Source: an uncultured delta proteobacterium
Lineage (GTDB): Bacteria; Desulfobacterota; Desulfomonilia; Desulfomonilales; Desulfomonilaceae
Assembly (NCBI GenBank): GCA_963789265.1
Contig: CAWBKB010000001.1
Span: 1,248,001-1,312,000 of the forward strand
DNA: 64,000 nucleotides
Reading direction: 5' to 3'
The notes below the pieces were generated by a model. The model searched no databases and was not told the origin of the DNA. It saw nothing but the letters and a program-made list of their open reading frames with translations. A program made the position numbers and the translations under genes. Below, piece by piece: positions 11,247 to 46,411 of this stretch (positions are counted from its first letter, which is position 1; each line of letters opens with the position of its first letter).

Positions 11247-11279
11247 CAAGTATAGAAAGCGAGATCGAAGGATATACTC

Positions 11280-12167
11280 ATGGCTGAGGAACAAAAACGG
11301 GAATTCTGGAGGTGGTCAGAAACCAACTGGGTTGATCCCGATATAAAGTGGGAGGATGCCGAGTTCATCACAGTAGGGATTGATGTGGGATCGGTCAGTT
11401 CTCAAGCGGTAGTGATGGCTGACGGTCAATTCTATGCTTATGGCAACATGAGGACCGGCTCCGACAGCCCTAACAGCGCTCGAAACGCCCTCAAGTTTGC
11501 CCTGGAGAATACCACTTTAACCGAAGACAAGATCCATTATTGCATCGGCACCGGCTATGGGCGCGTCAACGTCCCGATGGCCGACAGAACCGTAACCGAA
11601 ATCGCTTGCCATGCAAGAGGGGCCAACTTCATCTACGGTCCCGCTGTACGGACCGTGCTGGATGTCGGAGGGCAGGACATCAAAGCCATCCGCTGTGATG
11701 ATAAAGGGAAGGTGACCAACTTCTTGATGAATGACAAGTGCGCGGCAGGAACCGGCCGAGGGATGGAGGTACTTTCAGATCTCCTCTCCGTGCCGATTGG
11801 TGATGTGGGTGACAGATCTTTTCAGATCGCCCACGAACCGAAACCTGTTTCGAGCACATGTGTGGTTTACGCCAAGTCCGAAGCGACAAGCCTGTTGCGG
11901 AAAGGACTTGATACCAATGAAGTCCTGGCTGCGTACTGCTCGGCAATGGCTGACAGAATCTACTCTCTTCTGGAGCGCGTCGGCGTGGAGCCGGAATTCG
12001 CCATAACCGGCGGCATGGCCAAGAATCGCGGAGTTGTCGACAGGCTGAAGAAAAAGTTGGGCCTGGAACCCATGAAGACCAAATGGGACACACAATTGGC
12101 CGGCGCGGCCGGCGCAGCACTATTCGGCCATGCTCTCTGCAAGAAGGGCAGAGCACGCGGTGAGTAG
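11280..12167 (+). CDS. bzdQ: Bzd-type benzoyl-CoA reductase subunit Q-like ATPase
   Basis: N-terminal EFWRWSE extension, GIDVGSVSSQAV, MRTGSDSP, TGYGR, EIACHARGA, MNDKCAAGTGR, SSTCVV. Confidence 0.8.
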   Translation: MAEEQKREFWRWSETNWVDPDIKWEDAEFITVGIDVGSVSSQAVVMADGQFYAYGNMRTGSDSPNSARNALKFALENTTLTEDKIHYCIGTGYGRVNVPMADRTVTEIACHARGANFIYGPAVRTVLDVGGQDIKAIRCDDKGKVTNFLMNDKCAAGTGRGMEVLSDLLSVPIGDVGDRSFQIAHEPKPVSSTCVVYAKSEATSLLRKGLDTNEVLAAYCSAMADRIYSLLERVGVEPEFAITGGMAKNRGVVDRLKKKLGLEPMKTKWDTQLAGAAGAALFGHALCKKGRARGE

Positions 12168-17061: not shown

Positions 17062-17748
17062 TCAAGACTCTTCTTCCGACGACACTTCGATACAATCAGG
17101 AGCATCATAGCCGGCTTTGTTCACTTTGGGGTTGGCCGGAAGTGCTACCATCTCGTTCGATGGATAGGGGCGCAGGAGAGGATTCAATATCTTGGGTTCC
17201 TTGACCTCTGTGTCAAGCCACAGGTCATAGTCCTCCGGTTTGAGTATCACCGGCATCCGGTCATGGATAGGTCGAGTCAAATCGTTGGCATCGGTAGTGA
17301 GAATTGTACACGATTCGATGGTCTCACCCTCCGGTCCCTTCCAGCTTTCCCAAAGCCCCGCGAAAGCAAAGGGACTTCCCTCAGCATTTCTGACAAGATA
17401 GGGTTGTTTCTGTTTTCCTTCTGTCTTCTTCCATTCATAAAAACCGTCTGCAGGTACAAGGCATCTCCTGGTCTTGAAAGCTGACCTAAACGCCGGTTTC
17501 TCCGCGGCACTTTCTCCCCTTGCGTTTATGAGTCTATTTCCAATTGAGGTGTCCTTAGCCCAAAACGGGATGAGACCCCATTTGACCTGTACCAAGCGTC
17601 TCTGAAGCGTATCCCGGTCTAGTCTTATTATCACTACCATCTGCGTGGGAGCGATGTTGTAGCGAGGTTGCAGATCGGGGACTTCTTCCAGCCCGAAACG
17701 TTCCGCCAGGTCTTTGGCTAGCGTCATCAGTACCAATCTCCCGCACAT
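17062..17748 (-). CDS. SOS-response-associated peptidase (SRAP; YedK/HMCES-like abasic-site protein)
   Basis: MCGR start, RYNIAPTQ, WGLIP, INAR, GFYEW, IHDRMPVIL. Confidence 0.95.
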   Translation of the reverse strand: MCGRLVLMTLAKDLAERFGLEEVPDLQPRYNIAPTQMVVIIRLDRDTLQRRLVQVKWGLIPFWAKDTSIGNRLINARGESAAEKPAFRSAFKTRRCLVPADGFYEWKKTEGKQKQPYLVRNAEGSPFAFAGLWESWKGPEGETIESCTILTTDANDLTRPIHDRMPVILKPEDYDLWLDTEVKEPKILNPLLRPYPSNEMVALPANPKVNKAGYDAPDCIEVSSEEES

Positions 17749-17832
17749 TTTGGATTCCCCAAGCAAAGAATTCCATTTCCAGACTATAACATTATGCATT
17801 ATAAAGGAGTTTTACAATTAGAGGAGGTAACT

Positions 17833-18126
17833 GTGGCACTGACCAAGGCAGGCATAGCCCCAAAAGTCGCCAATGACTGCGGGTTCATGAAAGACCAAGC
17901 GATGGAAATGGTTGAAAAATTGCTAGAAATCATGAAGAAGAGTCTCATCGCTGGGGAAAACGTAATCATTTCTGGCTGCAGTAAGTGGAATGTCAGATCC
18001 AAACACGCTCGGAGGGGTAGGAACTCCAAGACCGGCGAGGAGATGGTGCTTGATCCCCGGAGGGTTGTGACGAGGAGTTATTCTCCTTGCTCGAAGATCG
18101 CTGTAAATAGGGGCTTGAAGAAATGA
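17833..18126 (+). CDS. IHF-alpha/HU-like DNA-binding protein, divergent or decaying copy
   Basis: ALTKA..., ARRGRNSKTGEE; GFG motif appears as GCS and the intercalating Pro (RNP) as Ser; RBS GAGGAGG. Confidence 0.75.
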   Translation: MALTKAGIAPKVANDCGFMKDQAMEMVEKLLEIMKKSLIAGENVIISGCSKWNVRSKHARRGRNSKTGEEMVLDPRRVVTRSYSPCSKIAVNRGLKK

Positions 18127-18509
18127 AGAAAAGAGAAAGTGTGAAGCGAGATTTCACGGAAAACATGATAAACCACGCGGTCCTCAATCATTGGTGGGAA
18201 CTCGTTCGGGCTGTGGAGTCCATACGAAACAACAGGGATGACCGGCTAGCCGGTTTTAATCTTGGCACAGCAATCCAAGGTCTTATATGTCTGAGCCTTG
18301 AATATGGAACTCATCGGTTATTGAAGGCTCTGCCACCTGAACAAAGGCACCGGTTGGAAACCATCATAGTAGATGGGACAGAGTTAGCCAGAGATGCTTT
18401 TGAAAATGGGACGCCTCTTTTTGAGGGGATGGATTTCCCCACGGCAGACAGCATTTTTGAACTCATTTCAGGAATAAGCCTTCGGAATTATGCGCTTGAC
18501 AAGCCCTGA
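18123..18509 (+). CDS. Hypothetical protein
   Basis: 128-aa ORF overlapping the IHF-like stop (ATGA). Confidence 0.55.
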   Translation: MKKRESVKRDFTENMINHAVLNHWWELVRAVESIRNNRDDRLAGFNLGTAIQGLICLSLEYGTHRLLKALPPEQRHRLETIIVDGTELARDAFENGTPLFEGMDFPTADSIFELISGISLRNYALDKP

Positions 18510-18872
18510 GGCCAGCCAAACGGATACTTGTCAAAGAACCTCTCTCCACGAGAAGTACAGGCTACCGTGTGTTGTACGTATCCTGTAGGCCCGCCCAAAG
18601 CCGTCTCGGTCCACAAATGCCCCATCGGTTGGGGAGGCCAGGATCGCCGCTAAAATCCTTGCCGCAAATCTCATCATGGTAACCAGCTTGTTCATTTGCC
18701 GACTCCCCTCCCGTCGAAGTCTCGTCGTTGTCCTCATTTGTCGTAATCGGCCAAGGCAGGTGACACAAGGTATGCCAACGGAGAAAAATAGATGTACTTC
18801 GGGATCTTCCGCGACGCTCCGCCCGTATCCTGTAACCCTTCAGTTACAGGCGGCGGATGCTCCATCCGGCCA

Positions 18873-18952
18873 TGTCATTGCGAGCGCAGCGAAGCAATCT
18901 CCCAGCCTGTCCAAGAGGGGATTGCTTCGTCGTTTCACTCCTCGCAATGACA
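18873..18952 (+). repeat. RPE-like palindrome TGTCATTGCGAG..GCAATCT..GATTGCTTCG..CTCGCAATGACA, copy 1
   Basis: Arms near-identical to 60520-60600, different loop. Confidence 0.85.
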
Positions 18953-19311
18953 CCGTCGACAGAATTCTCCCCGCGGAATTGAATGCTTGCTGTATCCTGC
19001 AAATAAGCCTTTACAATTCAAGTTATTAAAGACATACTACGCACCGCAGGGTTCTCCCAGGAATAACAACCAATACGATTCCGATTTTCCAGAGGGGGTA
19101 TTCATGAACGGACGTAGGCACTGGTTCAGTTGATGAGGGTGGCTCGAACGTTCATCTTTTGCCTATAGGGGATTCTTTCCGCCATTATCCGGTGTCACGT
19201 TTCATTCGCAAATACGACTAAAGAGTTTTGATGTCCGAATAATCTGATCCGAAGATAAGGTTCACGCTGGTTTATGAGGGAAACCACTCAAGGATGTTTC
19301 AGGAGGCTGCC

Positions 19312-22300
19312 ATGTTCAAGCGAATCGTAATTGTCCTGGTAATAGTGGCTGCGCTTTGCGTTCTTTCGTCATCCCCAACCGTGATGGCCCAGTCCAGGAA
19401 CGATGCCTTTCGTCTCCACAACGAAGCCGTCCGATTGTACAAAAAAGCCCAATCCAATGAGGACGTGAAGAGGGCTGTCCAGAAGTTCGAAGAAGCGGCA
19501 CGCATATACAGAAAGGTCGGGTATCCGCGAGGCGAAGGACAAGTCCTGAACAACCTCGGAGTCGTCTACCATGACAGGGACCAGTACGCCAAGGCAGTAG
19601 AGTATTATGAGAAGGCTCTGCAGATTGACCAAAACCTTGGTAACGTACGGGGACAAGGGATGACCCTGATGAACCTGGGTAACGTCTATTTGGATCAGGG
19701 CCAGTACGCTAAGGCAGTTCAGTATTATGAGAAGGCTCTAGAGATAAGCAGGAAGACCGGAGACGTCCGGACCCAAGGGCAAACCCTGGAGAACCTTGGT
19801 ATTGTCTACATGCAATGGGGTCAATATCCCAGGGCAGTGCGGTACCATGAGAAATCTCTGGAGATTATGAAAAGAGTTGGAGATGCAAGAGTGGAAGGGA
19901 ACATCCTGGGCAACTTGGGCGAGGTCTTCATGCGTTGGGGTCAATATGCCAAGGCCGTGGAGTATTTTGAGAAGTCTTTGAGGATAGCCAAAAAGGTTGG
20001 GGATGTTAAGACTGACGCGAAAGCCCTGGTGGGCCTCGGTTTGGTCTATAATGACTGGGGCCAGTACGCCAAGGCAGTAGAGTATTATGAGAAGGCTCTG
20101 CAGATTTACAAGAAGGTTGGGAAGGTAAGCGGAGAAGGGGTTGCCCTGGGCAACCTCGGTAATGTCTACGGGAGCTGGGGTCAATATGCCAAGGCGGTGG
20201 AGTATCATGAGAAGGCTCTGGCGATAGTCAGAAAGGTTGGGGATGTTAAGGGAGAAGGGCAAGAGCTGAACAACCTCGGTAGCGTCTATAGTGACTGGGG
20301 TCAATATGCCAAAGCCGTGGAGTATTTCGAGAAGGCTCTGGATATAACCAGGAAAATTGGAAACGTCGAGACTGAAGGGATAGCACTGGTATCCCTCGGT
20401 ACCGTCTATGGAGACTGGGGTCAATATGCCAAAGCCGTGGAGTATTTCGAGAAGGCCCTGGAGATTGACAAGAAGATTGGGGACGTACCCGGAGAGAGCT
20501 ATGTGCTTGGCAACCTCGGTATAGTCTATAGAGAGTGCGGTCAATATGCGAAAGCTGTGGAGCATTATGAGAAGGCTCTGCTGATAGCCATAAAGTTAGG
20601 GGATGTTCAGTCAGAAGCGACAGCCCTGCACCACCTCGGTCTCGTCTATGCAAGTCAAGGTCAATACTCGGAGGCCCTGACTAATTTCCAAAAAGCACTT
20701 GAGATGTTGAAAAGGATCGAGGTGCCCGCCAATCGGCTCAAGGATTCAATAGGCAATCTCTACCTCGACAAGGGTGACTTGGCAAGGGCCGAGCCGTTTA
20801 TCAGGGAGTCAGGAGATGCCGATTCCCTGGGACGACTCGCTCTCCTGAGGTCGGATTACACCAAAGCAAAGGGTCACTATGAGGAACTCCGCCAATCCGC
20901 AGATAAGAACCGAGCTGCATCCAGCCTCTTCACAGCATATACCGGCATCGGAATGGCATGTGAAGGGCTTGGAGACCTTCCAGGCGCAGCAGAGCATTTT
21001 CGCAAGGCTATCGATTACACGGAGGAGCTGCGTGCCGGTCTGAGTCCTGCCGAGAAAGCGGAGTTCTACAACGTCAGGGTCAGCGGCTTTTACAGAACCG
21101 CTCCGTACGAGGGCCTTGCCCGAGTGCTGGTGAAACTCAACAAGCCTCTGGATGCATTAAAGGAATCCGAATACACCAGAGCCCGTATGTTTGCCGAACG
21201 CATCTCAAAGCGAGCAGAAGGGTCTGCTCCGCACATTCCACAGGACGTGCGGGAAAAAGATTCTCACCTCAATCACAGTCTCGCTGCTTTGAGCAAAAAT
21301 CTCCAGAAAGCGTACGAGAAGCAGAACAAAGAGGTCATAGCCGCGCTTGAGCCCCAGGTGAAAACGGCCAAAGAAAACCTTGCCGCGCACATTGACATGC
21401 TCCGCAAACAGTATCCTCTCTTTGCCGCAACCAAGTACCCGGAACCGATGGGTTTGGATCAAACTGGCCTGAAAGATAACGAATGGGTGTTGGCGTACCA
21501 TGTTACGGACCCCGGTATCATCATCTACCTCACTAAAGGGAAGAATCTCGTAAAGGCGCTGTACAAACCGACTCCAAGAAAAGAGATTGACGAACTGGTC
21601 CGGAAGTTCCGCCAACCGATGGAACTTGGGCCGGATGATTCTCTCGCAAAGAAACTCAGTCAATTTGACTTCAAAACCGGTAAGAAACTATCGGACATTC
21701 TTCTTTCCGACATCCCTCCTGTCCTGCCCAAGAATACTCCGGTTATCATTGTCCCTGATGGTTCTCTCGGTGTCGTGCCGTTCGAGATGCTCGTCTTAAA
21801 CGATGGTGGAAAGATCGTAACAGACAATAAAAGACCTCAGACCTCAGGTGCTGAATTCTTCGGCGATCGCAACCCGATTTCGTATTACCAGTCGATCACG
21901 GCCCTGACTCTCGCCCGTACCCTTGGAAAACAACATAAACTCGGCGAAAAACTGCTCGTGATGGTGGACCCTGTTTTTTCTAGTGACGATCCTCGTCTGG
22001 TCAAACTTGCCAAACAGGAGAAGGACAGGCTTTTGGCTACTCTTCCAAAAGACCTCACCATGTCTATCGAGAGTGAGAGTGGGCTTACTTTTCCCCGGCT
22101 TCCGCTCACCGCTGAACTCGGCGAGTCCTTGAAGCAATCCGACCCTTCTAAGACCGATCTGTACGAAGGAATGACCGCCAAAAAGTCGGTCCTTCTAGGA
22201 AAAGACCTTACTCCGTACCGCTCCGTGGTGTTCGGCACACATGGGTATTTCGGGAAAGACCTTCCCGGAATACAAGAGCCTGTGCTGGTGCTCAGCCTTG

Positions 22301-22662
22301 TCGGTGAACCGAAGGGTCAGGATGGTTTTCTGAGATTGAGCGAGGTTATGGGCCTGAAGATCAACTGTGACATAGCTGCACTTACCGCATGCCAAACCGG
22401 GCTGGGACGACGCATCTCAGGCGAAGGCACGATGGGAATGGGAAGAGCTTTCCAGTACGCCGGTGCCAAAAGCGTGTTGATGAGTCTCTGGTCTGTGAGT
22501 GAAACGGCGTCGGTCAATCTGGTGGAGAGTTTCTTCAAGCATCTCAAGGAAGGAAAGAACAAGCTGGAGGCTTTGAGACTTGCCCGAGAAGAGATACGCA
22601 AGGCAGGTTACGACCATCCGTTTTATTGGGCTCCATTTATTCTGGTGGGAGAGGTGGAGTAG
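19312..22662 (+). CDS. Exported TPR-repeat CHAT (caspase-like) protease 1
   Basis: RBS AGGAGG; signal peptide MFKRIVIVLV...TVMA; about 10 40-aa TPRs; CHAT motifs IVPDGSL, FGTHG (His), LTACQTG (Cys), SLWSV, HPFYWAPF. Confidence 0.93.
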   Translation: MFKRIVIVLVIVAALCVLSSSPTVMAQSRNDAFRLHNEAVRLYKKAQSNEDVKRAVQKFEEAARIYRKVGYPRGEGQVLNNLGVVYHDRDQYAKAVEYYEKALQIDQNLGNVRGQGMTLMNLGNVYLDQGQYAKAVQYYEKALEISRKTGDVRTQGQTLENLGIVYMQWGQYPRAVRYHEKSLEIMKRVGDARVEGNILGNLGEVFMRWGQYAKAVEYFEKSLRIAKKVGDVKTDAKALVGLGLVYNDWGQYAKAVEYYEKALQIYKKVGKVSGEGVALGNLGNVYGSWGQYAKAVEYHEKALAIVRKVGDVKGEGQELNNLGSVYSDWGQYAKAVEYFEKALDITRKIGNVETEGIALVSLGTVYGDWGQYAKAVEYFEKALEIDKKIGDVPGESYVLGNLGIVYRECGQYAKAVEHYEKALLIAIKLGDVQSEATALHHLGLVYASQGQYSEALTNFQKALEMLKRIEVPANRLKDSIGNLYLDKGDLARAEPFIRESGDADSLGRLALLRSDYTKAKGHYEELRQSADKNRAASSLFTAYTGIGMACEGLGDLPGAAEHFRKAIDYTEELRAGLSPAEKAEFYNVRVSGFYRTAPYEGLARVLVKLNKPLDALKESEYTRARMFAERISKRAEGSAPHIPQDVREKDSHLNHSLAALSKNLQKAYEKQNKEVIAALEPQVKTAKENLAAHIDMLRKQYPLFAATKYPEPMGLDQTGLKDNEWVLAYHVTDPGIIIYLTKGKNLVKALYKPTPRKEIDELVRKFRQPMELGPDDSLAKKLSQFDFKTGKKLSDILLSDIPPVLPKNTPVIIVPDGSLGVVPFEMLVLNDGGKIVTDNKRPQTSGAEFFGDRNPISYYQSITALTLARTLGKQHKLGEKLLVMVDPVFSSDDPRLVKLAKQEKDRLLATLPKDLTMSIESESGLTFPRLPLTAELGESLKQSDPSKTDLYEGMTAKKSVLLGKDLTPYRSVVFGTHGYFGKDLPGIQEPVLVLSLVGEPKGQDGFLRLSEVMGLKINCDIAALTACQTGLGRRISGEGTMGMGRAFQYAGAKSVLMSLWSVSETASVNLVESFFKHLKEGKNKLEALRLAREEIRKAGYDHPFYWAPFILVGEVE
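19540..20700 (+). repeat. Intragenic 120-bp tandem repeat array encoding TPRs
   Basis: Core tggggtcaatatgccaaggc.gtggagta...gagaagg recurs every 120 nt; exact blocks at 19581/20061 and 20298/20418. Confidence 0.85.
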
Positions 22663-22735
22663 TATCGGCTGTTAAGGTTTTCAAGAGATTAGCAACCTGG
22701 CTTTGCCAGTACTGTGCATGAGATGGGGGTAACTT

Positions 22736-25706
22736 ATGTTAAGATTCCGGGTTTTCAGATCGATTCACGTTGTGCTCATTGTTTTTGGATTCATCCTTAT
22801 CCTTTCTGGACCCATTCAGCAAAGGGCTTCAGCCGCCGATTCAGACCATGCGCAAATTCAACGTCTTCAGAAGGTTATGGAAATCATCAAAAAGAACTAT
22901 TTGCGAGAAGTCCACGATGAAGAGCTACTGGACGGGGCCATCAGGGGGATGCTCCAATCATTGGACCCTAATTGCTCCTACTTCAATGCGGAAGCTTTAA
23001 AAGTATTACAAAGCGAAAACAAGGGTAGGTTCGGGGGGATAGGTGTGGAAATCACGCTGAAGGATGGCGCACTAACAGTTGTGAGCCCTTTAGGCGGATG
23101 TCCTGCCGACAAAGCAGGTGTCGAATCGGGAGATAGAATTGTAAGCATAAATGGCGAAACGACCCAGAACATCACCTTGCCCAATGCGGTTAAGTCGATG
23201 AGGGGCACTATAGGCAGCATCGTAACGCTTACTATAATGAGGGAGGGATTTCAGAAGCCCAGGGATTTCGTGATCACTCGGGACGAAATCCATGTCTCCC
23301 CGCTCAAGAAGGTCCTACTCGAGGAGGGCTATCCATATATTAAGCTTGTCAGCTTTCAGGAAGGAACAGACGAGGAACTCAGTAAAGCTTTTAAAGACTT
23401 TCGAAAGAAACACCCAATCAGGGGCCTGATCCTGGATTTGCGTGACAACCCCGGCGGGCTGCTTGATCAAGCAGTCAAAGTGGCCAATCTGTTCATAACC
23501 AAAGGTTTAATCTGCTACACCAACGGCCGATTGAAAGAGCAGCGAATGGAATTCCGAGCACAAAAAGGTGGTGAACATTACGAGTTCAAAATGGCGGTTC
23601 TTATCAACAAGGGATCGGCAGGTGCTTCCGAAATTGTCACAGCAGCTTTGCAAGACCATAATCGAGGTTTGGTCTTTGGCATCCATTCTTTTGGTAGAGC
23701 TGCAATACAGACCATCCATCTTATCGGTGACGGGTCCGCCCTGAGATTGACGACGGCACACTATTACACCCCAAATGGCAAGGATATTGACAAAGAAGGC
23801 ATCTTACCGGACGTAGATCTAGAAAAGGAAATCGTAGCCCGGACGTCAGTCACTGCGGGCGGCAAAAAAGCGGCAGCCAATATTAGGGAAAATCCGGGTA
23901 ATGATATTGCGATCAGAAAAGCTCTGCAATGGTTGAAATCCGAAACTTCGGTCATCGCGTATAAGGCGGCCAATCGGTCGCCGGAAGCATCAGCTCAATC
24001 ACAGAGCCAGCCGATTGTCAGCGCCGAGGCTCAAAAAAGAGAGATAACGAGAAAGGGGCGTCCGAAATACCAGGAGCTTGAGGCATCCAAAGATTACAAA
24101 GAGGCAAGGAAAAGATACCGTGTGGCCGCTGAAAGGGGTGATTTGGAAAGCCAAGTCTCTCTTGGGTATGTATACGAAAAGGCCTTGGGGGTGCCTAAAG
24201 ATTACCAGAAGGCGGCAAAATGGTACCGTATGGCGGCTGAGAAGGGGAACGCCAACGGTCAAGCTCTTCTGGGCCTGATGTACAAAAGAGGCTTAGGGGT
24301 TGCAAAGGATCTGGAAGAAGCTCGCCAGTGGTTCAAGAAATCCGCGGAACAGGAAAACCCCCTTGGCCAGAACGAGCTGGCTAACCTGTACTCGGAGGGG
24401 GTGGGCGTTGGTGAAGACTATGCCGAGGCACTAAGGTTGTATCGCAGATCCGCTGAACAGAATTATCCTGCGGCCCAATACAACATCGGCAGAATGTATC
24501 AGTACGGCAAGGGCGTACCAAAAGACGAAAAAGAAGCGGCGCAGTGGTATTTGAAAGCGGCTGAGCAGGGACACTCCCTGGCGGAAGATGGATTGGGAAG
24601 AATGTACAGGGACGGGGTAGGGATTCCCAAAGATGAAAAGGAGGCTCTCAAATGGTTCCGAAAAGCTGCTGAAGCTGGGTCGAAATATGGTGAGCTTGAT
24701 CTCGGATTGATGTATGCGCAGGGCCTTGGAGGGCCGCGCAATTACGAGGAGGCATTAACCTGGTTCAGGAGGGCCGCAGGCGAGGGTCTTGACGAGGCGC
24801 GTTACCGCATTGGACTCATGTATCTCGACGGCTTGGGAACTGAGAAAGATATGGTTGAAGCGGCCATCTGGTTTTCTAAGGCCGGGGCGAACGGATTCGA
24901 TAAATCGAAGGAAAAGATAAAAGAACTGATGGACCGGTTTCGTCCGCGTGCTGAAAAAAAGGATGCCGAGGCCCAGTATAATCTCGGAGTTCTTTATGAG
25001 GCCCAGGGAAACATAGAGAAGCATACAGGCCACGTTGCGGATGCCGTTAAGAGCTATGCGTATAATCACAAATGCTACATTCTGGCGGCCAGACAGGGAT
25101 ATGCCCCGGCTCAGTACCGTCTTGCATTAATTGCAGCAAATACCGGTAGCCCTGACGAGGCCCTGTCGTGGTGCCGCAAGGCGGCAGATAAGGGCTATTT
25201 TCGAGCCCAAGCGTACATAGGTGATCTTTATTTGATCGGCAAAGGAGGATTAAAGCAAAGCCCCGAGGAGGCTGCGAAGTGGTTTCGCAAGGCCGCGGAC
25301 CAGGGATTCGCGTACACGCAGAACAATCTCGGATTTTTGTATCTAAAAGGACGTGGTGTTCGTCAGAAACACCGACGAAGCGATAAAATGGTTTAGAAAA
25401 TCGGCCCAGGGGGGCGAGCCCATGGCTCAGACTTGGCTTGGATCTATGTACAGAAACGGGGTTGGACTACCCGTAAACTATCGGGAGGCTATGAAATGGT
25501 TGCGCAAGGCTGCCGATCAGGGTGAAGTAGGCGGGCAATTATTTCTGGGAGAAATGTATTTGAAGGGTATGGGCATGCCAAAGGACGATGCTGAAGCAGT
25601 GAAATGGTTTTCCAAAGCCACCACGCAGGGTAATGACAAAGCAAAGACGTATTTGCACCAAATGACTCTGGAGCTTCCCGAAGGTGCTCAAAGCAAGAAA
25701 CAATGA
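22736..25706 (+). CDS. Exported S41A (CtpA-like) PDZ-protease domain with substituted catalytic dyad, fused to about 13 Sel1 repeats; frameshift at about 25367-25369
   Basis: Signal peptide; FGGIGV PDZ loop; LDLRDNPGGLL; SAGASEI...SFGRAAIQ instead of SASASEI...TFGKGxVQ; Sel1 repeats continue in ORF 25353..25706 after removing one A. Confidence 0.88.
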
Positions 25707-26035
25707 CCTGAGGCATTTGAAACCGTCTTGAAAAACGGTGAGCAGGTGCCCGGCACAGAGTCTAGGGCTCCACTATTTGGCGGCCAGAAAAATCCCCCCT
25801 GGCGCCCCTTTAGAAAGGGGGGGAACGGGAGGTATTCCTATTCACCATTTATAAATAGGGTACGGGGATTCTGAAAGCACGTCCGACGCGCGCCCGGCTG
25901 TAAGAGCTTTGATCCAACGATGTGCATATCGGAGGTTCATTGACGTTCGGCCCCTGTGGTGACGCAACCATCAAGGAGCGTCACTACGAATTCCGAGTCA
26001 TTTTTGCGGCAGATGCCACCTCACAGGAGATTGTC

Positions 26036-29000
26036 ATGTCCAAGCCAATTCTAGTAGTTCTCACAATACTGTTGTCGTACTTTCTTGTCGGAGGGGAAAT
26101 GGCCCTGGGCCAGTCAAAAGAAGAAGGGATCAAAATCTTCAACGAAGGAAAGGCATTACAGGATGAGACCAAGTCTATCGCCAATCTAAAAAAGGCCGCT
26201 GAGAAATACCAGCTCGCTGGGAAAATCTTCGAGAAAGCTAAATTCGACAAGGGGACCGCGGCGGTAGACAACAACTTGGGCATGGTCTACGCCAAGTTGG
26301 GGGAGTACTCTAAGGCTGTGGATTACTGTGAGAGGGCGTTGACCATTTTCAGGAAGCTCGGTGATACGGAGAATGAATTCAATACCCTTACGGGGTTGGG
26401 AAACATCTACAAAGGCTGCCGACAATATGCCAAGGCGGTAGAACATTACGAAAAAGCATTGGCCATCGCCACAAAATACAATAACTTAAGTGCTAAACGA
26501 GAAAGCCTCACAAACTTGGGGAATGCCTATGAACACTGGGGTGAATACTCCAAGGCTGTAGAGCATTACCAACAAGCTTTGAAAATTGCTGAAAAGCTCG
26601 GAGACCGGGAGGGGACAGGGACAATTCTATTCAACCTGGGGTTTGTTTATGAAGCCTGGCGTCAATATTCGACGGCCGTAGAATGTTATGAAAAAGCGTT
26701 GGCGGTAAAGACAAAAGCTGGCGATAGGCTGGCTGAAGGGCAAATTTTCAACCAATTGGGCAATATCTACAAAGATTGGGGTCAGTACTCCACGGCTGTC
26801 AATTATTACGAAAAGGCGTTGGAAAAGGCCAACAAGTTACATGACCGGGAGGGTGAAGGGATAATACGATCCAACCTGGGAAACGTCTATTACTACTGGC
26901 GTCAATATCACAAGGCTGTAGAACATTACAAGAAGGCGCTGGATATCGCGAGAAGCATCGGGGACGAAGGGACGATTGGAGGGTGCTTCAACAATCTGGG
27001 GACCGTTTATAAAGATTTGGATCAACCCTCAAAGGCCGCAGATTATTTTGAGAAGGCCTTGGAGATTTGGAGAAAGACGGGCTACTCGCTAGGGCAGGCC
27101 GAGGCCCTCATGAATCTGGGTGTCATTCATAAGGACGACTGGGGCCGGTACTCAAAGGCTGTCGAGTATTATCGGGAATCCTTAAAGATTTTCACGGACG
27201 TCAAAGATACGAACTATGCAGGAGAGGCCTTGATGAACTTGGGGCACGTATATAAAGACTGGGGTCAGTATTCCAAGGCGATGGATTATTACAAAAAGTC
27301 ATTGGAAACATTCAAGACTACCGGTGTCCTGAGGGATGAAGGCACAGCCCGTGCAAGCCTCGCCGATGTTTATGCGATCCGGGGTCAATATTCCAAGGCA
27401 ATTGAAGGTTATCAAAGGTCACTGAAAATATTCAAGAAGCTCAAAGACACGAAGTTTGAAGGCGGAGTCCTAGGGGGACTGGGCGATGTTTATGCACAAG
27501 AGGGAGAATATGTGAACGCCCTGGAAAACTACAAGGCTGCGCTGGTCAAATGGAAGGAAGCTGGGATACCGGCCAGTACACCCGAGACACGCATAGGCGA
27601 CTTGTACCTCGATATGGGCGACGCCGCAAAGGCTGAGCCTATTCTCAAAGAAAGCCGGTCCAATTTGTCATTGGGAAGACTTTACCTTTCCAAATCAGAT
27701 TACCAGGCTGCGAAGAATTGCTATGCAGAGGTTCTCAAGTATGCAGAAGAGAGGGGTAACGTGGATGGTCTGTTTACCGGCTATACCGGGCTGGGGACAG
27801 TCTTTGAAAGGATGGGCGATGTGTCAGGAGCGAGGGATAGTTACGTGAAGGCGACGAAGCTGACCGAAGAGCTCAGGGCCGTCCTCAGCCGTGCTGAACG
27901 GGAACGGTTTTTTGATGTACGAATAAACGGTTTTTATAGGACAGCGCCTTACAAGGGACTAGCTCGAGTACTGCTACGCATGAATAAGGCTCTCGATGCT
28001 TTCAAAAATTCCGAATATACCAAAGCAAGAACGTTTGCCGACGCTATCTCGATATTTTACCAGGAGAAGAGATTTGGTGTACCACCGGAAATCCTAAAGC
28101 AAGATAATGATCTAAATGATCAGGTTGCAGCTCGGAAAAGGGCCAGGCAAAAAGCCTATGAGCAGGACAATAAGCAAGCCATCACCACTTTGGAGCCTCA
28201 GATAAGGCAATTGGAAAACGAGCTCGCGGCCCATATACGATTGCTAAGGGACCAATATCCCCTGTTTGCAGCCACAAAGTACCCTGAGCCTATGGACATT
28301 GATCAGACCGCTCTCAAGGATGACGAGTGGGTCCTGACTTATGACGTTACCGATTCTGGCATCATGATATACCTCACCAGAGGAAAGCGACTTGTGAAGG
28401 GCTTATTCAAGCCGGTGTCCGATAGGCAGCTAAAGGAGCTGGTGGACAAGTTCCGTCAGCCGATGGAGCTGGGTCCTGATGATTCTCTCGCAAAGAAGCT
28501 TGCGTCCTTTGACTTCAAATCCGGTAAGAAACTCTCTGACCTTCTCCTCAGCGACATCCTTTCAGATCTCCCCAAGGATACTCCTGTAATCATCGTCCCC
28601 GATGGCTCCCTGGGAGTCGTGCCGTTTGAGATGTTGGTCTTAAACGATGGCGGAAAGGTCGTAACGAACGGCAAGAGACCTCAGACTTTAGGTGCTGAAT
28701 TCTTCGGAGATCGCAATCCGATATCCTATTACCAGTCAATCACAGCCCTTACCCTCGCTCGTACACTGGGCAAACAACAGAAGCCGGGCGAAAAACTACT
28801 TGCAATGGTGGACCCTGTTTTTTCTAGTGACGATCCTCGTCTGGTGAAACTTGCCAAACAGGAGAAGAACAGATTGCTGGCTACTCTTCCAAAAGACCTC
28901 ACCATGTCCATCGAGACCGAGAGCGGGATTACTTTTCGTAGGCTTCCGCTCACCGCTCAACTCGGTGAGTCCTTGAAGAAATCCGACCCTTCGAAGACCG

Positions 29001-29506
29001 ATCTGTACGAAGGAATGACCGCCAAAAAGTCCTTACTTCTTGGGAAAGACCTTACTCCGTACCGCTCTCTCGTGTTCGGCACACATGGGTATTTCGGGAA
29101 AGATCTGCCCGGAATACAAGAGCCTGTGCTGGTGCTCAGCCTTGTCGGTGAACCGAAGGGACAGGATGGTTTCTTGAGGCTCAGTGAAGTCATGGGCCTG
29201 AAGATCAACTGTGACATAGCTGCACTGACCGCATGTCAAACAGGTCTCGGGCGACGCATCTCCGGCGAAGGCACGATGGGAATGGGCCGGGCATTTCAGT
29301 ACGCAGGCGCGAAAAGTGTGTTGATGAGTCTCTGGTCTGTGAGTGAAACGGCGTCGGTCAATCTGGTGGAGAGTTTCTTCAAGCATCTGAAAGAAGGAAA
29401 GAATAAACTTGAGGCATTGAGGCTGGCGAGAGATGAGATACGCAAGGCGGGCTATGACCATCCGTTTTATTGGGCCCCGTTTATTTTGGTGGGCGAAGTG
29501 AACTGA
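26036..29506 (+). CDS. Exported TPR-repeat CHAT (caspase-like) protease 2
   Basis: RBS CAGGAG before ATG 26036; signal peptide MSKPILVVLTILL...ALG; about 11 TPRs; FGTHG and LTACQTG intact. Confidence 0.93.
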   Translation: MSKPILVVLTILLSYFLVGGEMALGQSKEEGIKIFNEGKALQDETKSIANLKKAAEKYQLAGKIFEKAKFDKGTAAVDNNLGMVYAKLGEYSKAVDYCERALTIFRKLGDTENEFNTLTGLGNIYKGCRQYAKAVEHYEKALAIATKYNNLSAKRESLTNLGNAYEHWGEYSKAVEHYQQALKIAEKLGDREGTGTILFNLGFVYEAWRQYSTAVECYEKALAVKTKAGDRLAEGQIFNQLGNIYKDWGQYSTAVNYYEKALEKANKLHDREGEGIIRSNLGNVYYYWRQYHKAVEHYKKALDIARSIGDEGTIGGCFNNLGTVYKDLDQPSKAADYFEKALEIWRKTGYSLGQAEALMNLGVIHKDDWGRYSKAVEYYRESLKIFTDVKDTNYAGEALMNLGHVYKDWGQYSKAMDYYKKSLETFKTTGVLRDEGTARASLADVYAIRGQYSKAIEGYQRSLKIFKKLKDTKFEGGVLGGLGDVYAQEGEYVNALENYKAALVKWKEAGIPASTPETRIGDLYLDMGDAAKAEPILKESRSNLSLGRLYLSKSDYQAAKNCYAEVLKYAEERGNVDGLFTGYTGLGTVFERMGDVSGARDSYVKATKLTEELRAVLSRAERERFFDVRINGFYRTAPYKGLARVLLRMNKALDAFKNSEYTKARTFADAISIFYQEKRFGVPPEILKQDNDLNDQVAARKRARQKAYEQDNKQAITTLEPQIRQLENELAAHIRLLRDQYPLFAATKYPEPMDIDQTALKDDEWVLTYDVTDSGIMIYLTRGKRLVKGLFKPVSDRQLKELVDKFRQPMELGPDDSLAKKLASFDFKSGKKLSDLLLSDILSDLPKDTPVIIVPDGSLGVVPFEMLVLNDGGKVVTNGKRPQTLGAEFFGDRNPISYYQSITALTLARTLGKQQKPGEKLLAMVDPVFSSDDPRLVKLAKQEKNRLLATLPKDLTMSIETESGITFRRLPLTAQLGESLKKSDPSKTDLYEGMTAKKSLLLGKDLTPYRSLVFGTHGYFGKDLPGIQEPVLVLSLVGEPKGQDGFLRLSEVMGLKINCDIAALTACQTGLGRRISGEGTMGMGRAFQYAGAKSVLMSLWSVSETASVNLVESFFKHLKEGKNKLEALRLARDEIRKAGYDHPFYWAPFILVGEVN

Positions 29507-29522
29507 CAGGAAGACAAGAATT

Positions 29523-29594
29523 AACCACAGAGACACGGAGGACACTGAGAAAGAAAAATAATGGTTTTCTCTGTGAACTCTGTGCCTCTGTGGT
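29523..29594. repeat. ACCACAGAGACACGGAG..CTCTGTG..CTCTGTGGT inverted short-repeat element
   Basis: 9-nt periodic CACAGAG units and their reverse complement; related half-copy at about 30864-30890. Confidence 0.7.
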
Positions 29595-29674
29595 GCATCT
29601 TGATTGCCTGCTGAACGGTTGCCATTTTTCTTATGGGCAGAGGTCCGCATTTTTCTCGGTGTAAGAATATCGGG

Positions 29675-29947
29675 CTATTCCGTCTCTCCCGGCTTCCAGT
29701 CCGGAAATTTCAATCCCCGGAATTGGCCGTCTGACAACCGGAAACAAATGCTTCGAGGGCGGCCTCTCTCTACCTGCAATTCTTTCATTTGGACGTCGAT
29801 CCATTGCCAGGCCGATTTCATATCATCGAGTGTCCGAGGGGGCACTGGTATGGTTCGGATCTCGCCGTCGTCCCATGCGAACGTTACCGATCCCGGTTTC
29901 ATGCTGCAGATGATCTCTTCGTCCCAGAATGAACCACCCGTCCCCAT
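29675..29947 (-). CDS. Hypothetical protein
   Basis: RBS GGGAGG before ATG 29947; follows ecfT co-directionally. Confidence 0.5.
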   Translation of the reverse strand: MGTGGSFWDEEIICSMKPGSVTFAWDDGEIRTIPVPPRTLDDMKSAWQWIDVQMKELQVERGRPRSICFRLSDGQFRGLKFPDWKPGETE

Positions 29948-29989
29948 GTTTCCTCCCGTATGCACGCGCTCGATCTGGAACTATTAACT

Positions 29990-30799
29990 TTATCCGAAGA
30001 TGAAGAGACGGCAAAGAGAAAAAACCGCAAGAAACAGAAATGCTTCGTAATCGGGCTTGGTAAAGCGCAGTGGTCTATATTCCGATCGGGGTAGCCCGGG
30101 CTGAAAACCCCTGGCGGTCATCGCAACGGCCAGCAGGTCGCCGCGCCTCAGAGTCCCTGTCAGGGCAGGGACAAGCACAGCGATGAGGTCTCTGCACCTC
30201 GAGACGATCCCTCCGTGCCCGAATTCCACTCCTCGGGACTTCTGGGCGTCAATTGTAGCGCTCAACTCCTGTTGAAGTAACGGCACAAAGCGCATCGCCA
30301 GCAACAGTACCATTCCAATTTCTTCAACCGGCACGCGAAAACGCTTCAAGGGGCGGGCCAGACGTTCGAAACTCCTGGCAAGGTCCTGCGGCATGGTGGT
30401 AAAAGTCAAAACCATAGATAGGATTATTGCCTGCATAATCTGACCGGCAAACATCAGACCGCTTTGAAGCCCCTGCTGAGTTATGGGCAGCGTCCATCGG
30501 CCCAAAACCACAGGTTGGCCGCCCCTGGTGAAGGCAATGTTCATTCCTGCGGCAATTATCAGCATCCACGAGAAACGAAGCAAGCCCCACCACCAGACGC
30601 GCCATCCGATCCCGGACAGAAGAATGAGCGCCGGCATAAGGCAAAAGGTGGCAAGAAGGGTGCTCCATGTGCGGGTGGTAAACACCCAGACGAGCAGCAC
30701 AGCCAAGCCGGCCAACTTGGTCCGGGGATCGAGTCCGTGCAACACCGAGTCGCCTGGAATATAGCCGCCTATGAACACGTCCTGCATCAATTTGTTCAT
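29990..30799 (-). CDS. ecfT: ECF transporter transmembrane T component
   Basis: GGYIPGDSVLHGLDPRTKL, LAMRFVP, AQKSRG and AMTARG coupling motifs. Confidence 0.9.
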   Translation of the reverse strand: MNKLMQDVFIGGYIPGDSVLHGLDPRTKLAGLAVLLVWVFTTRTWSTLLATFCLMPALILLSGIGWRVWWWGLLRFSWMLIIAAGMNIAFTRGGQPVVLGRWTLPITQQGLQSGLMFAGQIMQAIILSMVLTFTTMPQDLARSFERLARPLKRFRVPVEEIGMVLLLAMRFVPLLQQELSATIDAQKSRGVEFGHGGIVSRCRDLIAVLVPALTGTLRRGDLLAVAMTARGFQPGLPRSEYRPLRFTKPDYEAFLFLAVFSLCRLFIFG

Positions 30800-38138: not shown

Positions 38139-38899
38139 CGCAGCCATTGAGAGTGGAAAAAGTGGGCAAGATGTTTGGCAAAGTCGCGGTCCTCCTGGGG
38201 GTTTCTCTCGGACTCGAACCCGGGGAGAGACACGCTATCTTGGGGCCCAATGGCGCGGGCAAGACAACACTCTTCAACGTCATCTCAGGGATTCATGGGC
38301 TTAGCTCCGGCCGAGTCTTTCTGTTTGGCGAGGATGTATCAAGAATGCCGGTTCAGCGCCGGGCATCCATGGGATTGGGTAGGACGTTTCAGATTACCAA
38401 TCTGTTCGGTGCGTTGACGGTATTCCAAAACATAATGCTTGCACGACAGTCCTTAGAGCCCTATCGTTTTACCTTTTTTAAGCCACTGACCCGTTATCCA
38501 AGACTTATGTCGGAAGTGGAGAATATCCTGTGCCAGTGGGGAATCGAGGAGAAACACGATCAGGTGGTGAGCACCCTCTCCTACGGAGAGCAACGGCAGC
38601 TTGAAGTTATTATGGCGATGGCCAACAAGCCGAAGTTGCTGCTTCTAGATGAGCCTACCGCAGGATTGTCCCCATCCGAGACGGCGAGTATGACAACGTT
38701 TCTTAGCAAGCTGGAAGACTCCATTACCATACTTCTGGTAGAGCACGACATGGATGTGGTCTTTTCCCTGGCAGAGAAAATCACAGTGATGCATTACGGG
38801 AACGTGGTCGCGCAAGGGCCGGTGCAGGAGATCAAAGGGAATCCCCAAGTCATGGCGGCATATCTCGGAGAGGAACCCGAGCAGCATGTTACTGGTTGA
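38135..38899 (+). CDS. LIV-type ABC ATPase (LivG-like)
   Basis: GPNGAGKTT, LSYGEQR, LLDEP, VEHDM. Confidence 0.93.
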   Translation: MTQPLRVEKVGKMFGKVAVLLGVSLGLEPGERHAILGPNGAGKTTLFNVISGIHGLSSGRVFLFGEDVSRMPVQRRASMGLGRTFQITNLFGALTVFQNIMLARQSLEPYRFTFFKPLTRYPRLMSEVENILCQWGIEEKHDQVVSTLSYGEQRQLEVIMAMANKPKLLLLDEPTAGLSPSETASMTTFLSKLEDSITILLVEHDMDVVFSLAEKITVMHYGNVVAQGPVQEIKGNPQVMAAYLGEEPEQHVTG

Positions 38900-46410: not shown

Positions 46411-46411
46411 T

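What the first reader, a model, noticed from the sequence alone, without database searches (positions are those of the whole stretch)
22736..25706. CtpA-like pseudoprotease: catalytic Ser and Lys both replaced, PDZ loop kept
Established: S41A proteases use the Ser in SA-S-ASE and a Lys 25 residues later (TFG-K). Seen: SA-G-ASE (codon GGT) and, exactly 25 residues later, SFG-R (codon AGA). The PDZ carboxylate-binding loop (FGGIGV), DLRDNPGG and YYTPNG remain intact. Two substitutions hitting exactly the dyad are unlike the indel-type errors elsewhere in the window. Inference: a peptide/C-terminus-binding pseudoenzyme. The Sel1 fusion parallels TPR adaptors of CTPs (NlpI-Prc, LbcA-CtpA) but in one polypeptide.
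Basis: partly seen in the sequence, partly recalled or inferred. Interest (0 to 1): 0.75.

Follow-up and report, generated by a model that had tools for sequence, protein, structure and literature searches.

The report
Dead CtpA-like protease fused to Sel1 repeats
This gene encodes an exported copy of a bacterial tail-specific (CtpA-type) protease that has lost its catalytic serine and lysine but kept its peptide-binding parts and a long Sel1 repeat tail, so it is probably a binding protein, not an enzyme.

Summary
ORF 22736-25396 (886 aa) is signal peptide + CtpB_N + PDZ + Peptidase_S41 + about 11 Sel1 repeats. It continues after a +1 frameshift near 25358-25366 into ORF 25353-25706 (more Sel1). 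Aligned to solved P. aeruginosa CtpA, Gly296 (GGT, 23621) sits on catalytic Ser302 and Arg321 (AGA, 23696) on Lys327; Gln325 is kept. The PDZ loop and all tunnel residues that hold substrate in CtpA are kept, and an AF2 model (pLDDT 91) matches CtpA.

No orthologue exists in the searched databases (best identity 61%), so conservation of G/R cannot be tested directly. The protein is a fast-evolving offshoot (end branch 0.94) of the slowly evolving Desulfomonile-type CtpA clade. Its substitutions avoid conserved columns, so it is not drifting neutrally.

Among 416 relatives, 22 others lack Ser and/or Lys. These losses arose several times independently. The serine becomes only G or A, and the lysine mostly R.

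The gene lies between two exported TPR-CHAT (caspase-like) paralogues, and several relatives are S41-caspase fusions.

Verdict: a real pseudoprotease, a new variant of a known kind. Its partner and function are inferred. Raw reads were not checked.

The parts
22736..25396 (+). Main ORF (886 aa, P0001): signal peptide, CtpB_N-like helices, PDZ, Peptidase_S41 core with dead dyad, linker, about 11 Sel1 repeats; ends at a stop created by a frameshift
   Evidence: Pfam (Peptidase_S41 3.9e-48, Sel1 9.8e-78, PDZ_6 1.5e-10, CtpB_N-like 6.9e-12); NCBIfam TIGR00225 292.2 bits vs cut-off 218.6
22736..22834 (+). Predicted Sec signal peptide (residues 1-33, hydrophobic core VVLIVFGFILIL, ...RASA|AD)
   Evidence: read from the translation; helix 2-23 in the model; cleavage site is my inference, no predictor was run
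23024..23047 (+). PDZ carboxylate-binding loop GRFGGIGV (residues 97-104), intact
   Evidence: G97, F99, G101, G103 are 92-100% conserved in canonical relatives and kept
23336..23818 (+). Peptidase_S41 core domain (residues 201-361)
   Evidence: Pfam; AF2 model; Foldseek to CtpA 8sxh_B TM 0.75
23450..23464 (+). Tunnel strand P239-G240-G241-L242-L243 (= CtpA P245-G246-G247-V248-L249), kept
   Evidence: alignment mapped onto PMC11021448 section 11
23621..23623 (+). Codon GGT = Gly296 at the position of the catalytic Ser (CtpA Ser302, CtpB Ser309)
23696..23698 (+). Codon AGA = Arg321 at the position of the catalytic Lys (CtpA Lys327)
23705..23716 (+). I324-Q325-T326-I327 (= CtpA V330-Q331-T332-V333): triad Gln and second tunnel strand, kept
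24104..25393 (+). Sel1 repeat solenoid (about 11 repeats, residues ~457-886)
   Evidence: Pfam (8 stretches above threshold); motif count
25358..25366 (+). Frameshift site (CGTCAGAAA): one extra base between GRGV and NTDEAIKWFRK inside a Sel1 repeat, next to an A-run
   Evidence: frame 0 ...LKGRGVRQKHRRSDKMV*, frame +1 ...VRNTDEAIKWFRKSAQGG; exact base not determinable
25353..25706 (+). Continuation of the same gene in frame +1 (117-aa ORF): 2-3 more Sel1 repeats and the true C-terminus
   Evidence: Pfam Sel1 5.6e-28, 2 stretches
19294..22662 (+). Upstream neighbour: exported TPR(x~10)-CHAT caspase-like protease, His (GTHGY) and Cys (TACQTG) present; stop 74 nt before the S41 start
   Evidence: Pfam CHAT 2.5e-47, TPR_12 1.1e-105
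25922..29506 (+). Downstream neighbour: paralogous TPR-CHAT (59% identity overall, 93% in the last 341 aa); likely real start ATG at 26036 (MSKPILVV...)
   Evidence: CHAT-domain dN/dS 0.071

Best explanation
The gene encodes an exported, catalytically dead paralogue of the Desulfomonile-type C-terminal processing protease CtpA.

Shown:
- The nucleophile Ser is Gly and the general-base Lys is Arg.
- The CTP fold, the PDZ carboxylate-binding loop, the two beta-strands and hydrophobic residues that hold the substrate in the CtpA tunnel, the triad Gln and the family's C-terminal helix motif (ALxWLKS) are all kept.
- About 13 Sel1 repeats follow in the same polypeptide.
- The protein arose by duplication of a canonical CtpA and then evolved many times faster than its sisters, but with substitutions that avoid conserved positions.

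Inferred:
- It binds C-terminal tails or extended peptides in the PDZ and dead tunnel, and binds protein partners on the Sel1 superhelix, without cutting them. That makes it a substrate receptor, adaptor or decoy in the periplasm.
- The most likely partners are the two flanking secreted TPR-CHAT caspase-like proteases. An alternative partner is the genome's own active CtpA, reached through the retained oligomerisation elements.
- The 3' frameshift is most likely an assembly indel.
For: - Dead dyad on the catalytic positions. In the cited paper, S302A alone kills CtpA (PMC8764530, passages read).
- Fold intact: AF2 pLDDT 91.4, pTM 0.84; Foldseek to CtpA 8sxh_B TM 0.75, rmsd 2.4 A.
- Tunnel residues P239-G240-G241-L242-L243, F319, I324, Q325-T326-I327 match those that hold the heptapeptide in CtpA (PMC11021448 section 11).
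- Of 81 columns at least 85% conserved in 247 canonical rows, P0001 keeps 71. Six of the 10 changes lie in the two catalytic motifs: G296, A303, R321, A322, A323, I324.
- Against 147 closest-clade members, mismatches are 37/165 at columns >=95% conserved, 42/102 at intermediate columns and 44/59 at variable columns (Fisher p 2.4e-12). This means constraint, not neutral decay.
- An 886-codon frame stays open on a branch of 0.94 changes per site.
- Recurrence: 22 other proteins of 416 lack Ser and/or Lys. Where changed, the Ser site is only G (9) or A (7), and the Lys site is R in 9 of 16. At least 3 (parsimony 6) independent changes are needed on the careful trees. Near-identical cluster mates from other sources keep the same odd residues.
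- Partner lead: TPR-CHAT genes lie on both sides on the same strand, with a 74-nt gap upstream. Their CHAT domains are under strong purifying selection (dN/dS 0.07). There were 0 CHAT hits in 1.30 Mb around 80 ordinary CtpA genes. Six of the 15 relatives >=600 aa carry a caspase (PF00656) domain, three more were found, both domain orders occur, and two (P0006 G/K, P0120 A/K) have a dead S41.
- Other genes in the window are split by frame changes: the MFS transporter at 54061-55489 and the Mo-oxidoreductase at 48738-50895. An assembly indel in the Sel1 tail is therefore unsurprising.
Against: - No orthologue exists (best 61% identity; 90% cluster of one member). Conservation of G/R in this lineage and dN/dS cannot be measured.
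- The gene carries a frameshift, which also fits a recent pseudogene.
- Its constraint is clearly relaxed compared with canonical members (37/165 against 1-4/165 changes at conserved columns).
- Each dyad change could be a single A>G step from AGT or AAA (17 of 81 and 30 of 81 canonical genes use those codons), and reads were not seen.
- The CHAT link rests on one locus plus fusions to a different clan-CD domain (C14, not CHAT). No second genome with CHAT-S41 adjacency was found, because the one genome scan returned only generic CtpA loci.
- No binding was tested.
Confidence: 0.68

Rival explanations
1. Decaying pseudogene: a redundant CtpA duplicate that lost its dyad, later acquired a frameshift, and has no function.
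For: Frameshift near 25358-25366. Both catalytic residues are lost. Singleton with a very long branch (0.86-0.94 against 0.01-0.2 for canonical sisters). There are 37 changes at 165 family-invariant columns against 1-4 in canonical members.
Against: Substitutions strongly avoid conserved columns (p 2.4e-12) and are mostly conservative (L/I, K/R, D/E). The 886-codon frame is open despite roughly 0.9 changes per site. The single frameshift is near the 3' end, beside an A-run, in a window where other evidently needed genes are also split; even if real, it removes only the last 2-3 of about 13 repeats. The fold is predicted with high confidence. Flanking genes are under purifying selection.
Confidence: 0.13
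2. Regulatory subunit of the genome's active CtpA: the dead paralogue co-assembles into the CtpA hexamer and supplies a built-in Sel1 adaptor, so the CHAT neighbours are incidental.
For: The N-terminal helices (CtpB_N-like) and the family's conserved C-terminal ALxWLKS helix are kept. It is 55-64% identical to canonical clade members. In P. aeruginosa only one subunit of each CtpA dimer is activated by the TPR partner LbcA (abstract of PMC11021448), so a non-catalytic partner subunit is mechanistically plausible. Sel1 tails also occur on relatives with an intact dyad (P0003).
Against: No canonical ctpA lies in the window (one S41 hit only) and the rest of the genome was not available. This reading does not explain the flanking CHAT pair or the S41-caspase fusions.
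Confidence: 0.2
3. Base-call or assembly error: the real gene has Ser and Lys and is an ordinary active CtpA-Sel1 fusion.
For: GGT and AGA are each one A>G change from AGT and AAA, codons used at these sites by 17 of 81 and 30 of 81 canonical genes. The assembly has indel-type defects.
Against: The errors seen elsewhere are indels, not substitutions. Four further family-conserved residues beside the dyad are also changed (A303, A322, A323, I324), and 35 other invariant columns differ, so the whole protein is a divergent paralogue. The same G/A + R pattern is seen in independent relatives and in their cluster mates.
Confidence: 0.04
4. Still a protease, using another nucleophile (Ser294 or Ser298 in GSAGASE) with Arg321/Gln325.
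For: Two serines flank Gly296 and Gln325 is kept.
Against: Ser294 and Ser298 are also present in canonical enzymes (89% and 85% conserved), where S302A alone abolishes activity (PMC8764530). Arg is a poor general base. The residues after the Lys (GSV to AAI) are remodelled.
Confidence: 0.03

Closest known systems
Pseudomonas aeruginosa CtpA with its TPR lipoprotein LbcA (PDB 7RPQ, 8SXE-8SXH)
   Same: Best sequence and structure match (E 1.4e-86; TM 0.75). Same N-helix/PDZ/S41 layout, same tunnel residues, and a superhelical repeat partner.
   Different: Ser302 is Gly and Lys327 is Arg. The repeat domain is Sel1-type and fused in cis, not a separate lipoprotein. There is no lipobox. No cell-wall hydrolase substrate is implied.
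Desulfomonile/Desulfomonilaceae canonical CtpA (about 435 aa; e.g. P0278, P0285, P0410)
   Same: Parent clade (100/99 support). 50-64% identity and a shared C-terminal ALxWLKS motif.
   Different: 145 of 147 members are S/K/Q with very short branches and have no Sel1 tail. P0001 is a fast-evolving duplicate with a dead dyad.
E. coli Prc-NlpI and B. subtilis CtpB (PDB 5WQL, 4C2C-4C2H)
   Same: Same family and PDZ-gated tunnel. Prc also uses a TPR adaptor.
   Different: More distant (E 2.7e-23 and 8.8e-55), and both are active enzymes.
Bacterial pseudoproteases of other families: MamO (HtrA-like), CspC/CspA (subtilisin-like), pseudo-orthocaspases
   Same: Works-like analogy: protease folds kept for binding or regulation after loss of catalytic residues (PMC4794232, PMC4619724, PMC6426788; search listings and abstracts only).
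   Different: Unrelated folds. No S41 example turned up in my searches.
S41-caspase (Peptidase_C14) fusion proteins, e.g. P0054 'caspase family protein [Geomonas sp. Red875]'
   Same: They combine a CtpA-like PDZ-S41 module with a clan-CD cysteine protease, as the window does in trans. P0006 (G/K) and P0120 (A/K) also have a dead S41.
   Different: One polypeptide, C14 rather than CHAT, no Sel1. Most keep S/K.
Myxococcus xanthus DdvA periplasmic TPR-CHAT (for the neighbours)
   Same: Shows that TPR-CHAT modules work in the periplasm (PMC11506125, passages read).
   Different: DdvA is a membrane anti-sigma factor. The window's proteins are soluble secreted TPR-CHAT proteins with no anti-sigma domain.

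Membership tests
Peptidase family S41 / C-terminal processing peptidase (homology) | Peptidase_S41 domain above Pfam gathering score | tested here: met
   163.6 bits vs 24
Peptidase family S41 / C-terminal processing peptidase (homology) | NCBIfam TIGR00225 'prc' subfamily cut-off | tested here: met
   292.2 bits vs 218.6
Peptidase family S41 / C-terminal processing peptidase (homology) | PDZ domain inserted before the S41 core, with carboxylate-binding loop | tested here: met
   PDZ_6/PDZ/PDZ_2 at 100-171; GRFGGIGV kept
Peptidase family S41 / C-terminal processing peptidase (homology) | CTP three-dimensional fold | tested here: met
   AF2 pLDDT 91.4; Foldseek CtpA TM 0.75, rmsd 2.4 A; CtpB 4c2h TM 0.74
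Active S41 peptidase (enzyme) | Nucleophile Ser (CtpA Ser302) | tested here: not met
   Gly296, codon GGT
Active S41 peptidase (enzyme) | General-base Lys (CtpA Lys327) | tested here: not met
   Arg321, codon AGA
Active S41 peptidase (enzyme) | Triad Gln (CtpA Gln331) | tested here: met
   Gln325
Active S41 peptidase (enzyme) | Measured proteolytic activity | not testable with these tools
   needs a protease assay
Sel1-like repeat (SLR) proteins | Tandem PF08238 repeats | tested here: met
   9.8e-78, 8 stretches, plus 2 in the downstream frame
Pseudoprotease (maintained non-catalytic protease homologue) | Fold and binding sites kept, catalytic residues lost | tested here: met
Pseudoprotease (maintained non-catalytic protease homologue) | Maintained by selection (orthologues keep the state, dN/dS below 1) | tested here: inconclusive
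   No orthologue. Indirect support comes from the site pattern of substitutions and an open 886-codon frame. One 3' frameshift is present.
CTP plus separate TPR lipoprotein adaptor (LbcA-CtpA, NlpI-Prc type) | Separate TPR lipoprotein that binds and activates an active CTP | tested here: not met
   Repeats are Sel1-type and fused in cis to a dead CTP. No lipobox in the N-terminus. The resemblance is functional analogy only.

The most novel reading that the evidence does not exclude
The dead CtpA-Sel1 protein is the substrate-recognition or regulatory subunit of a periplasmic caspase-like protease module. Its PDZ and dead tunnel read C-terminal tails, its Sel1 solenoid docks the flanking TPR-CHAT proteases, and the trio forms a two-family proteolytic switch. 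The single-chain version of that switch would be the S41-caspase fusions seen in related bacteria. On this reading, the repeated birth of dead CtpA paralogues in Desulfomonilaceae is the evolutionary route to such receptors.
Probability: 0.2. Interest if true: 0.72.

Novelty: new variant of a known kind. Interest (0 to 1): 0.48.

Why it matters
C-terminal processing proteases control cell-wall hydrolases, signalling and virulence, and all characterised members are active enzymes. A maintained, exported dead member that keeps its peptide-binding apparatus and carries its own repeat adaptor would add S41 to the short list of bacterial protease families known to produce pseudoenzymes. The survey around it also found three broader things:
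- Loss of the dyad has happened repeatedly in one clade, always to small residues at the Ser site and mostly Arg at the Lys site.
- Automated annotation still names these proteins 'S41 family peptidase' or 'carboxyl-terminal processing protease'.
- CtpA-like modules are repeatedly joined to caspase-like proteases.

If the link to the TPR-CHAT neighbours is real, it gives a testable entry point into the almost unstudied secreted CHAT proteases of bacteria.

Tried and rejected
- Genome scan for related loci. The 80 loci kept are generic CtpA genes at 48% identity or less. The window's own genome and the Desulfomonilaceae relatives were not recovered, so no second example of the neighbourhood could be examined. 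The loci served only as a control.
- Complex prediction for S41 part + CHAT domain: tool unavailable, nothing folded. Binding stays untested.
- Grouping of P0001 with the other long-branch dead forms P0141/P0187: rejected as long-branch attraction. Without them P0001 joins canonical P0274/P0278/P0285/P0358 (92/97).
- Promoter/terminator scan of 18500-30200: counts near shuffled expectation, nothing usable.
- PADLOC: no defence-system match for P0001; only generic TPR matches for the CHAT proteins.
- Programmed frameshifting at 25358-25366: considered; I saw no known slippery or stimulatory motif in the sequence read. Judged unlikely, not tested.
- Literature: 'pseudoprotease' + 'C-terminal processing', 'C-terminal processing protease' + 'pseudoenzyme', 'orthocaspase' + 'Peptidase_S41', 'non-peptidase homologue' + 'S41' (swamped by journal DOIs), and searches found no described bacterial S41 pseudoprotease or S41-caspase fusion. 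Subscription-only papers are not covered.
- From memory only: MEROPS lists non-peptidase homologues in S41, and vertebrate IRBP is related. Neither was checked.
- Atlas search: best score 0.88, only generic S41 and S41+TPR clusters.
- A full-length structure model and a read-through translation were not made.
Full report
**What is in the sequence**

On the + strand, ORF 22736-25396 encodes 886 residues. Pfam finds, in order:
- CtpB_N-like (27-86);
- PDZ (100-171);
- Peptidase_S41 (201-361, 3.9e-48, 163.6 bits against a cut-off of 24);
- Sel1 repeats (9.8e-78, 8 stretches above threshold).

NCBIfam's 'prc' C-terminal processing peptidase subfamily model is passed (292.2 against 218.6 bits).

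The N-terminus (MLRFRVFRSIHVVLIVFGFILILSGPIQQRASA|AD) looks like a Sec signal peptide. That is my reading; no predictor was run. A GGGGG stretch lies 7-11 nt before the ATG.

The ORF ends at a stop that is an artefact of a frame change. Frame 0 reads ...LYLKGRGVRQKHRRSDKMV*, while frame +1 reads ...VRNTDEAIKWFRKSAQGG... and continues for 117 codons to 25706. That ORF scores Sel1 5.6e-28 with two repeats. Between GRGV and NTDEA a Sel1 repeat needs two residues, but the DNA holds seven bases (CGTCAGA) next to an A-run. So there is one extra base somewhere in about 25358-25366. Read through, the protein would have about 13 Sel1 repeats.

**Checking the observation**

- Gly296 is codon GGT at 23621-23623, and Arg321 is codon AGA at 23696-23698, 25 residues apart.
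- The best PDB match is P. aeruginosa CtpA (E 1.4e-86, residues 41-379).
- The printed alignments contain an internal control. Wild-type 7RPQ reads gsaSaae, the S302A mutant 7RQH reads gsaAaae, and the query reads gsaGase in the same gap-free column. So Gly296 is Ser302.
- sfgR lies on sfgK (Lys327), and Gln325 lies on Gln331.
- The triad Ser302-Lys327-Gln331 (CtpB: Ser309-Lys334-Gln338), and the fact that S302A is protease-dead, come from PMC8764530 (passages read).
- The PDZ loop GRFGGIGV, LDLRDNPGGL and HYYTPNG are intact.

An AlphaFold2 model of residues 1-400, built with a 101-sequence alignment, has mean pLDDT 91.4 and pTM 0.84. It superposes on CtpA 8sxh_B (TM 0.75, rmsd 2.4 A over 325 columns), on H. 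pylori CtpA and on CtpB.

**Are the binding parts kept?**

Section 11 of PMC11021448 (read) describes a heptapeptide held in the CtpA tunnel. It pairs by backbone with Pro245-Gly246-Gly247-Val248-Leu249 and with Gln331-Thr332-Val333. Val330, Leu249, Val248 and Val333 surround P1-P3, and Phe325 lies beyond the active site. G246M and F325A nearly abolish activity.

Using the gap-free alignment (offset 6), the counterparts in the window's protein are Pro239-Gly240-Gly241-Leu242-Leu243, Gln325-Thr326-Ile327, Ile324 and Phe319. All are identical or conservatively hydrophobic.

So the peptide-holding apparatus is intact while the chemistry is gone. That it actually binds peptides is inference.

**Is the loss more than noise?**

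- Among 268 aligned rows from the first two searches, 247 are S/K. In those, 81 columns are at least 85% conserved. The window's protein keeps 71 of them, and six of its ten changes sit in the two catalytic motifs (G296, A303, R321, A322, A323, I324).
- Against the 147 members of the closest clade, it differs from the consensus at 37 of 165 columns that are >=95% conserved, at 42 of 102 intermediate columns and at 44 of 59 variable columns (Fisher p 2.4e-12). Canonical members differ at only 1-4 of the 165.
- The protein therefore evolves under relaxed or shifted but real constraint. Neutral decay would hit all columns alike, and would not leave 886 codons open on a branch of about 0.9 changes per site.
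- The remodelled residues beside the dyad also argue against two isolated base errors. However, GGT and AGA are each one A>G step from codons that 17 of 81 (AGT) and 30 of 81 (AAA) canonical genes use at these sites, and reads were not available.

**Relatives**

No orthologue was found.
- The protein's 90% cluster has one member, on a 2.59-Mb contig.
- It is its own representative in the 50% library.
- A profile search and a single-sequence search over lengths 220-700 give at most 61% identity.
- The top hits are about 435-aa proteins. All 118 new ones are S/K/Q. Where a source names them, they are S41 peptidases of Desulfomonile tiedjei or Desulfomonilaceae.

The window probably comes from that family, which is inference from best hits only.

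**A recurrent pattern**

Across everything fetched, 420 rows from 416 proteins cover both sites, and 392 are S/K. This set is made of top hits to the query, not a random sample.
- Twenty-eight rows are non-canonical. That is 23 after removing five 90%-cluster mates, counting the query itself.
- At the Ser site these 23 have G in 9, A in 7 and S in 7.
- At the Lys site they have R in 9, K in 7 and another residue in 7.
- Gln is kept in 19 of 23.
- Other G/R forms are P0123 (with mate P0384 from another source), P0186 (mates P0386, P0387) and the second domain of P0203. A/R forms are P0122, P0265 (mate P0388) and P0412.

The trees show independent origins.
- On a careful IQ-TREE of 49 rows, the Desulfomonile-type clade is supported 100/99. 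Canonical end branches are 0.01-0.2, and the non-canonical ones are long: P0001 0.86, P0123 0.97, P0122 0.84, P0006 0.47.
- P0389 (S/T) and P0412 (A/R) nest with canonical P0344/P0365 (100/97). P0006 (G/K) nests with P0271/P0290 (99/95).
- The non-canonical state needs six changes, at least three of them forced by well-supported branches.
- P0001's apparent grouping with P0141/P0187 was flagged as a meeting of long branches. With those two left out, P0001 (end branch 0.94) joins canonical P0274, P0278, P0285 and P0358 at 92/97.

I read this as repeated duplication of a slowly evolving CtpA, each time followed by fast divergence and loss of the dyad to small residues and, mostly, Arg. Such replacements preserve the local structure.

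**Architecture in relatives**

- Sel1 tails also occur on P0003 (S/K, Pfam Sel1 8.2e-45) and P0122 (A/R), and by eye on P0192 (S/K).
- The Atlas lists large S41+TPR clusters, for example 1814 members with TPR_2 on 47%.
- So a repeat adaptor fused to a CTP is not peculiar to the dead form.

**Neighbourhood**

The gene lies between two same-strand genes, 19294-22662 and 25922-29506 (likely start 26036).
- Each encodes a signal peptide, about ten TPRs and a CHAT domain (2.5e-47 and 2.9e-47), with the His (GTHGY) and Cys (TACQTG) motifs present.
- They are paralogues: 59% identical overall and 93% over the last 341 residues, but only 83.6% at the DNA level. The CHAT domains have dN/dS 0.071 at dS 0.62. 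Both are therefore maintained.
- These are the only CHAT copies and the only S41 copy in the window.
- As a control, the 80 generic CtpA loci (1.30 Mb) contain no CHAT hit, and all 81 of their S41 matches are S/K/Q.

Fusions in relatives point the same way.
- Six of the 15 relatives of 600 aa or more carry a caspase domain (PF00656): P0006, P0030, P0045, P0054, P0058, P0120.
- Pfam adds P0137, P0180 and P0207.
- Both domain orders occur, and caspase His and Cys motifs were both found in seven of the nine; P0207 matched the Cys pattern only and P0120 neither.
- P0006 and P0120 have a dead S41.

This is a lead that CtpA-like modules work with clan-CD proteases. It is not a demonstration: CHAT and C14 are different domains, and only one locus shows the adjacency. 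Periplasmic TPR-CHAT function has a precedent in DdvA (PMC11506125, passages read).

**The frameshift**

Other genes in the window are split in the same way.
- An MFS transporter is split (54416-55489 and 54061-54660, overlapping in different frames).
- A molybdopterin oxidoreductase is split (49906-50895 carrying profile positions 1-183, and 48738-49865 carrying 254-351 plus the dinucleotide-binding domain).

An assembly indel is therefore the simplest reading, but a real mutation cannot be excluded.

**Conclusion**

- Best explanation (confidence 0.68): a maintained, exported pseudo-CtpA that binds but does not cut, with a cis Sel1 adaptor.
- Who it works with is open: the flanking TPR-CHAT proteases (about 0.2-0.3) or the genome's active CtpA (about 0.2).
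- Rivals are a recent pseudogene (0.13), base error (0.04) and residual activity (0.03).
- I found no description of a bacterial S41 pseudoprotease or of S41-caspase fusions in the searchable literature. From memory, MEROPS records non-peptidase S41 homologues.
- Novelty: a new variant of a known kind. Interest is moderate, raised somewhat by the recurrent-loss pattern and the caspase link.

Noticed in passing
window 25353-25706 and about 25358-25366: The S41-Sel1 gene is interrupted by a +1 frameshift inside a Sel1 repeat beside an A-run. The 117-aa downstream ORF is its true tail.
   Followed up: yes
window 19294-22662 and 25922-29506: Two paralogous secreted TPR-CHAT genes flank the gene. 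Their CHAT domains are 93% identical in protein but 83.6% in DNA (dN/dS 0.071), so they are old duplicates under strong constraint, not a recent repeat.
   Followed up: yes
relatives P0006, P0030, P0045, P0054, P0058, P0120, P0137, P0180, P0207: CtpA-like PDZ-S41 modules are fused to caspase (Peptidase_C14) domains in both domain orders. Two of them (P0006 G/K, P0120 A/K) have a dead S41 active site. I found no paper on this architecture.
   Followed up: partly
relatives P0121, P0122, P0235 (alignment A1, columns 300-500): Some non-canonical relatives carry a duplicated N-terminal CtpB_N-like helical segment (two Pfam stretches in P0121 and P0122).
   Followed up: no
window 48738-50895 (-) and 54061-55489 (-): A molybdopterin oxidoreductase and an MFS transporter are each split into two ORFs in different frames. 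These are further indel-type defects or pseudogenes in this assembly.
   Followed up: partly
window 17794-18126 (+) and 17062-17799 (-): An IHF-alpha-like ORF that scores below the NCBIfam cut-off (80 against 111 bits) and has an odd N-terminus lies head to head with an SRAP (SOS-response-associated peptidase) gene. About 790 nt with no long ORF precede the first CHAT gene.
   Followed up: no
window 10470-12167 (+); 36349-39590 (+) and 44141-48741 (-): A pair of BcrAD/BadFG-type ATPase genes and two separate branched-chain-amino-acid-type ABC transporter clusters. This fits an anaerobic aromatic-degrading Desulfobacterota genome.
   Followed up: no
window 25707-26035: The 330-nt gap before the second CHAT gene holds a C-run/G-run inverted repeat (tcccccc...ggggggga) and a short hairpin right after the stop. 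Possibly a terminator or regulatory element.
   Followed up: no
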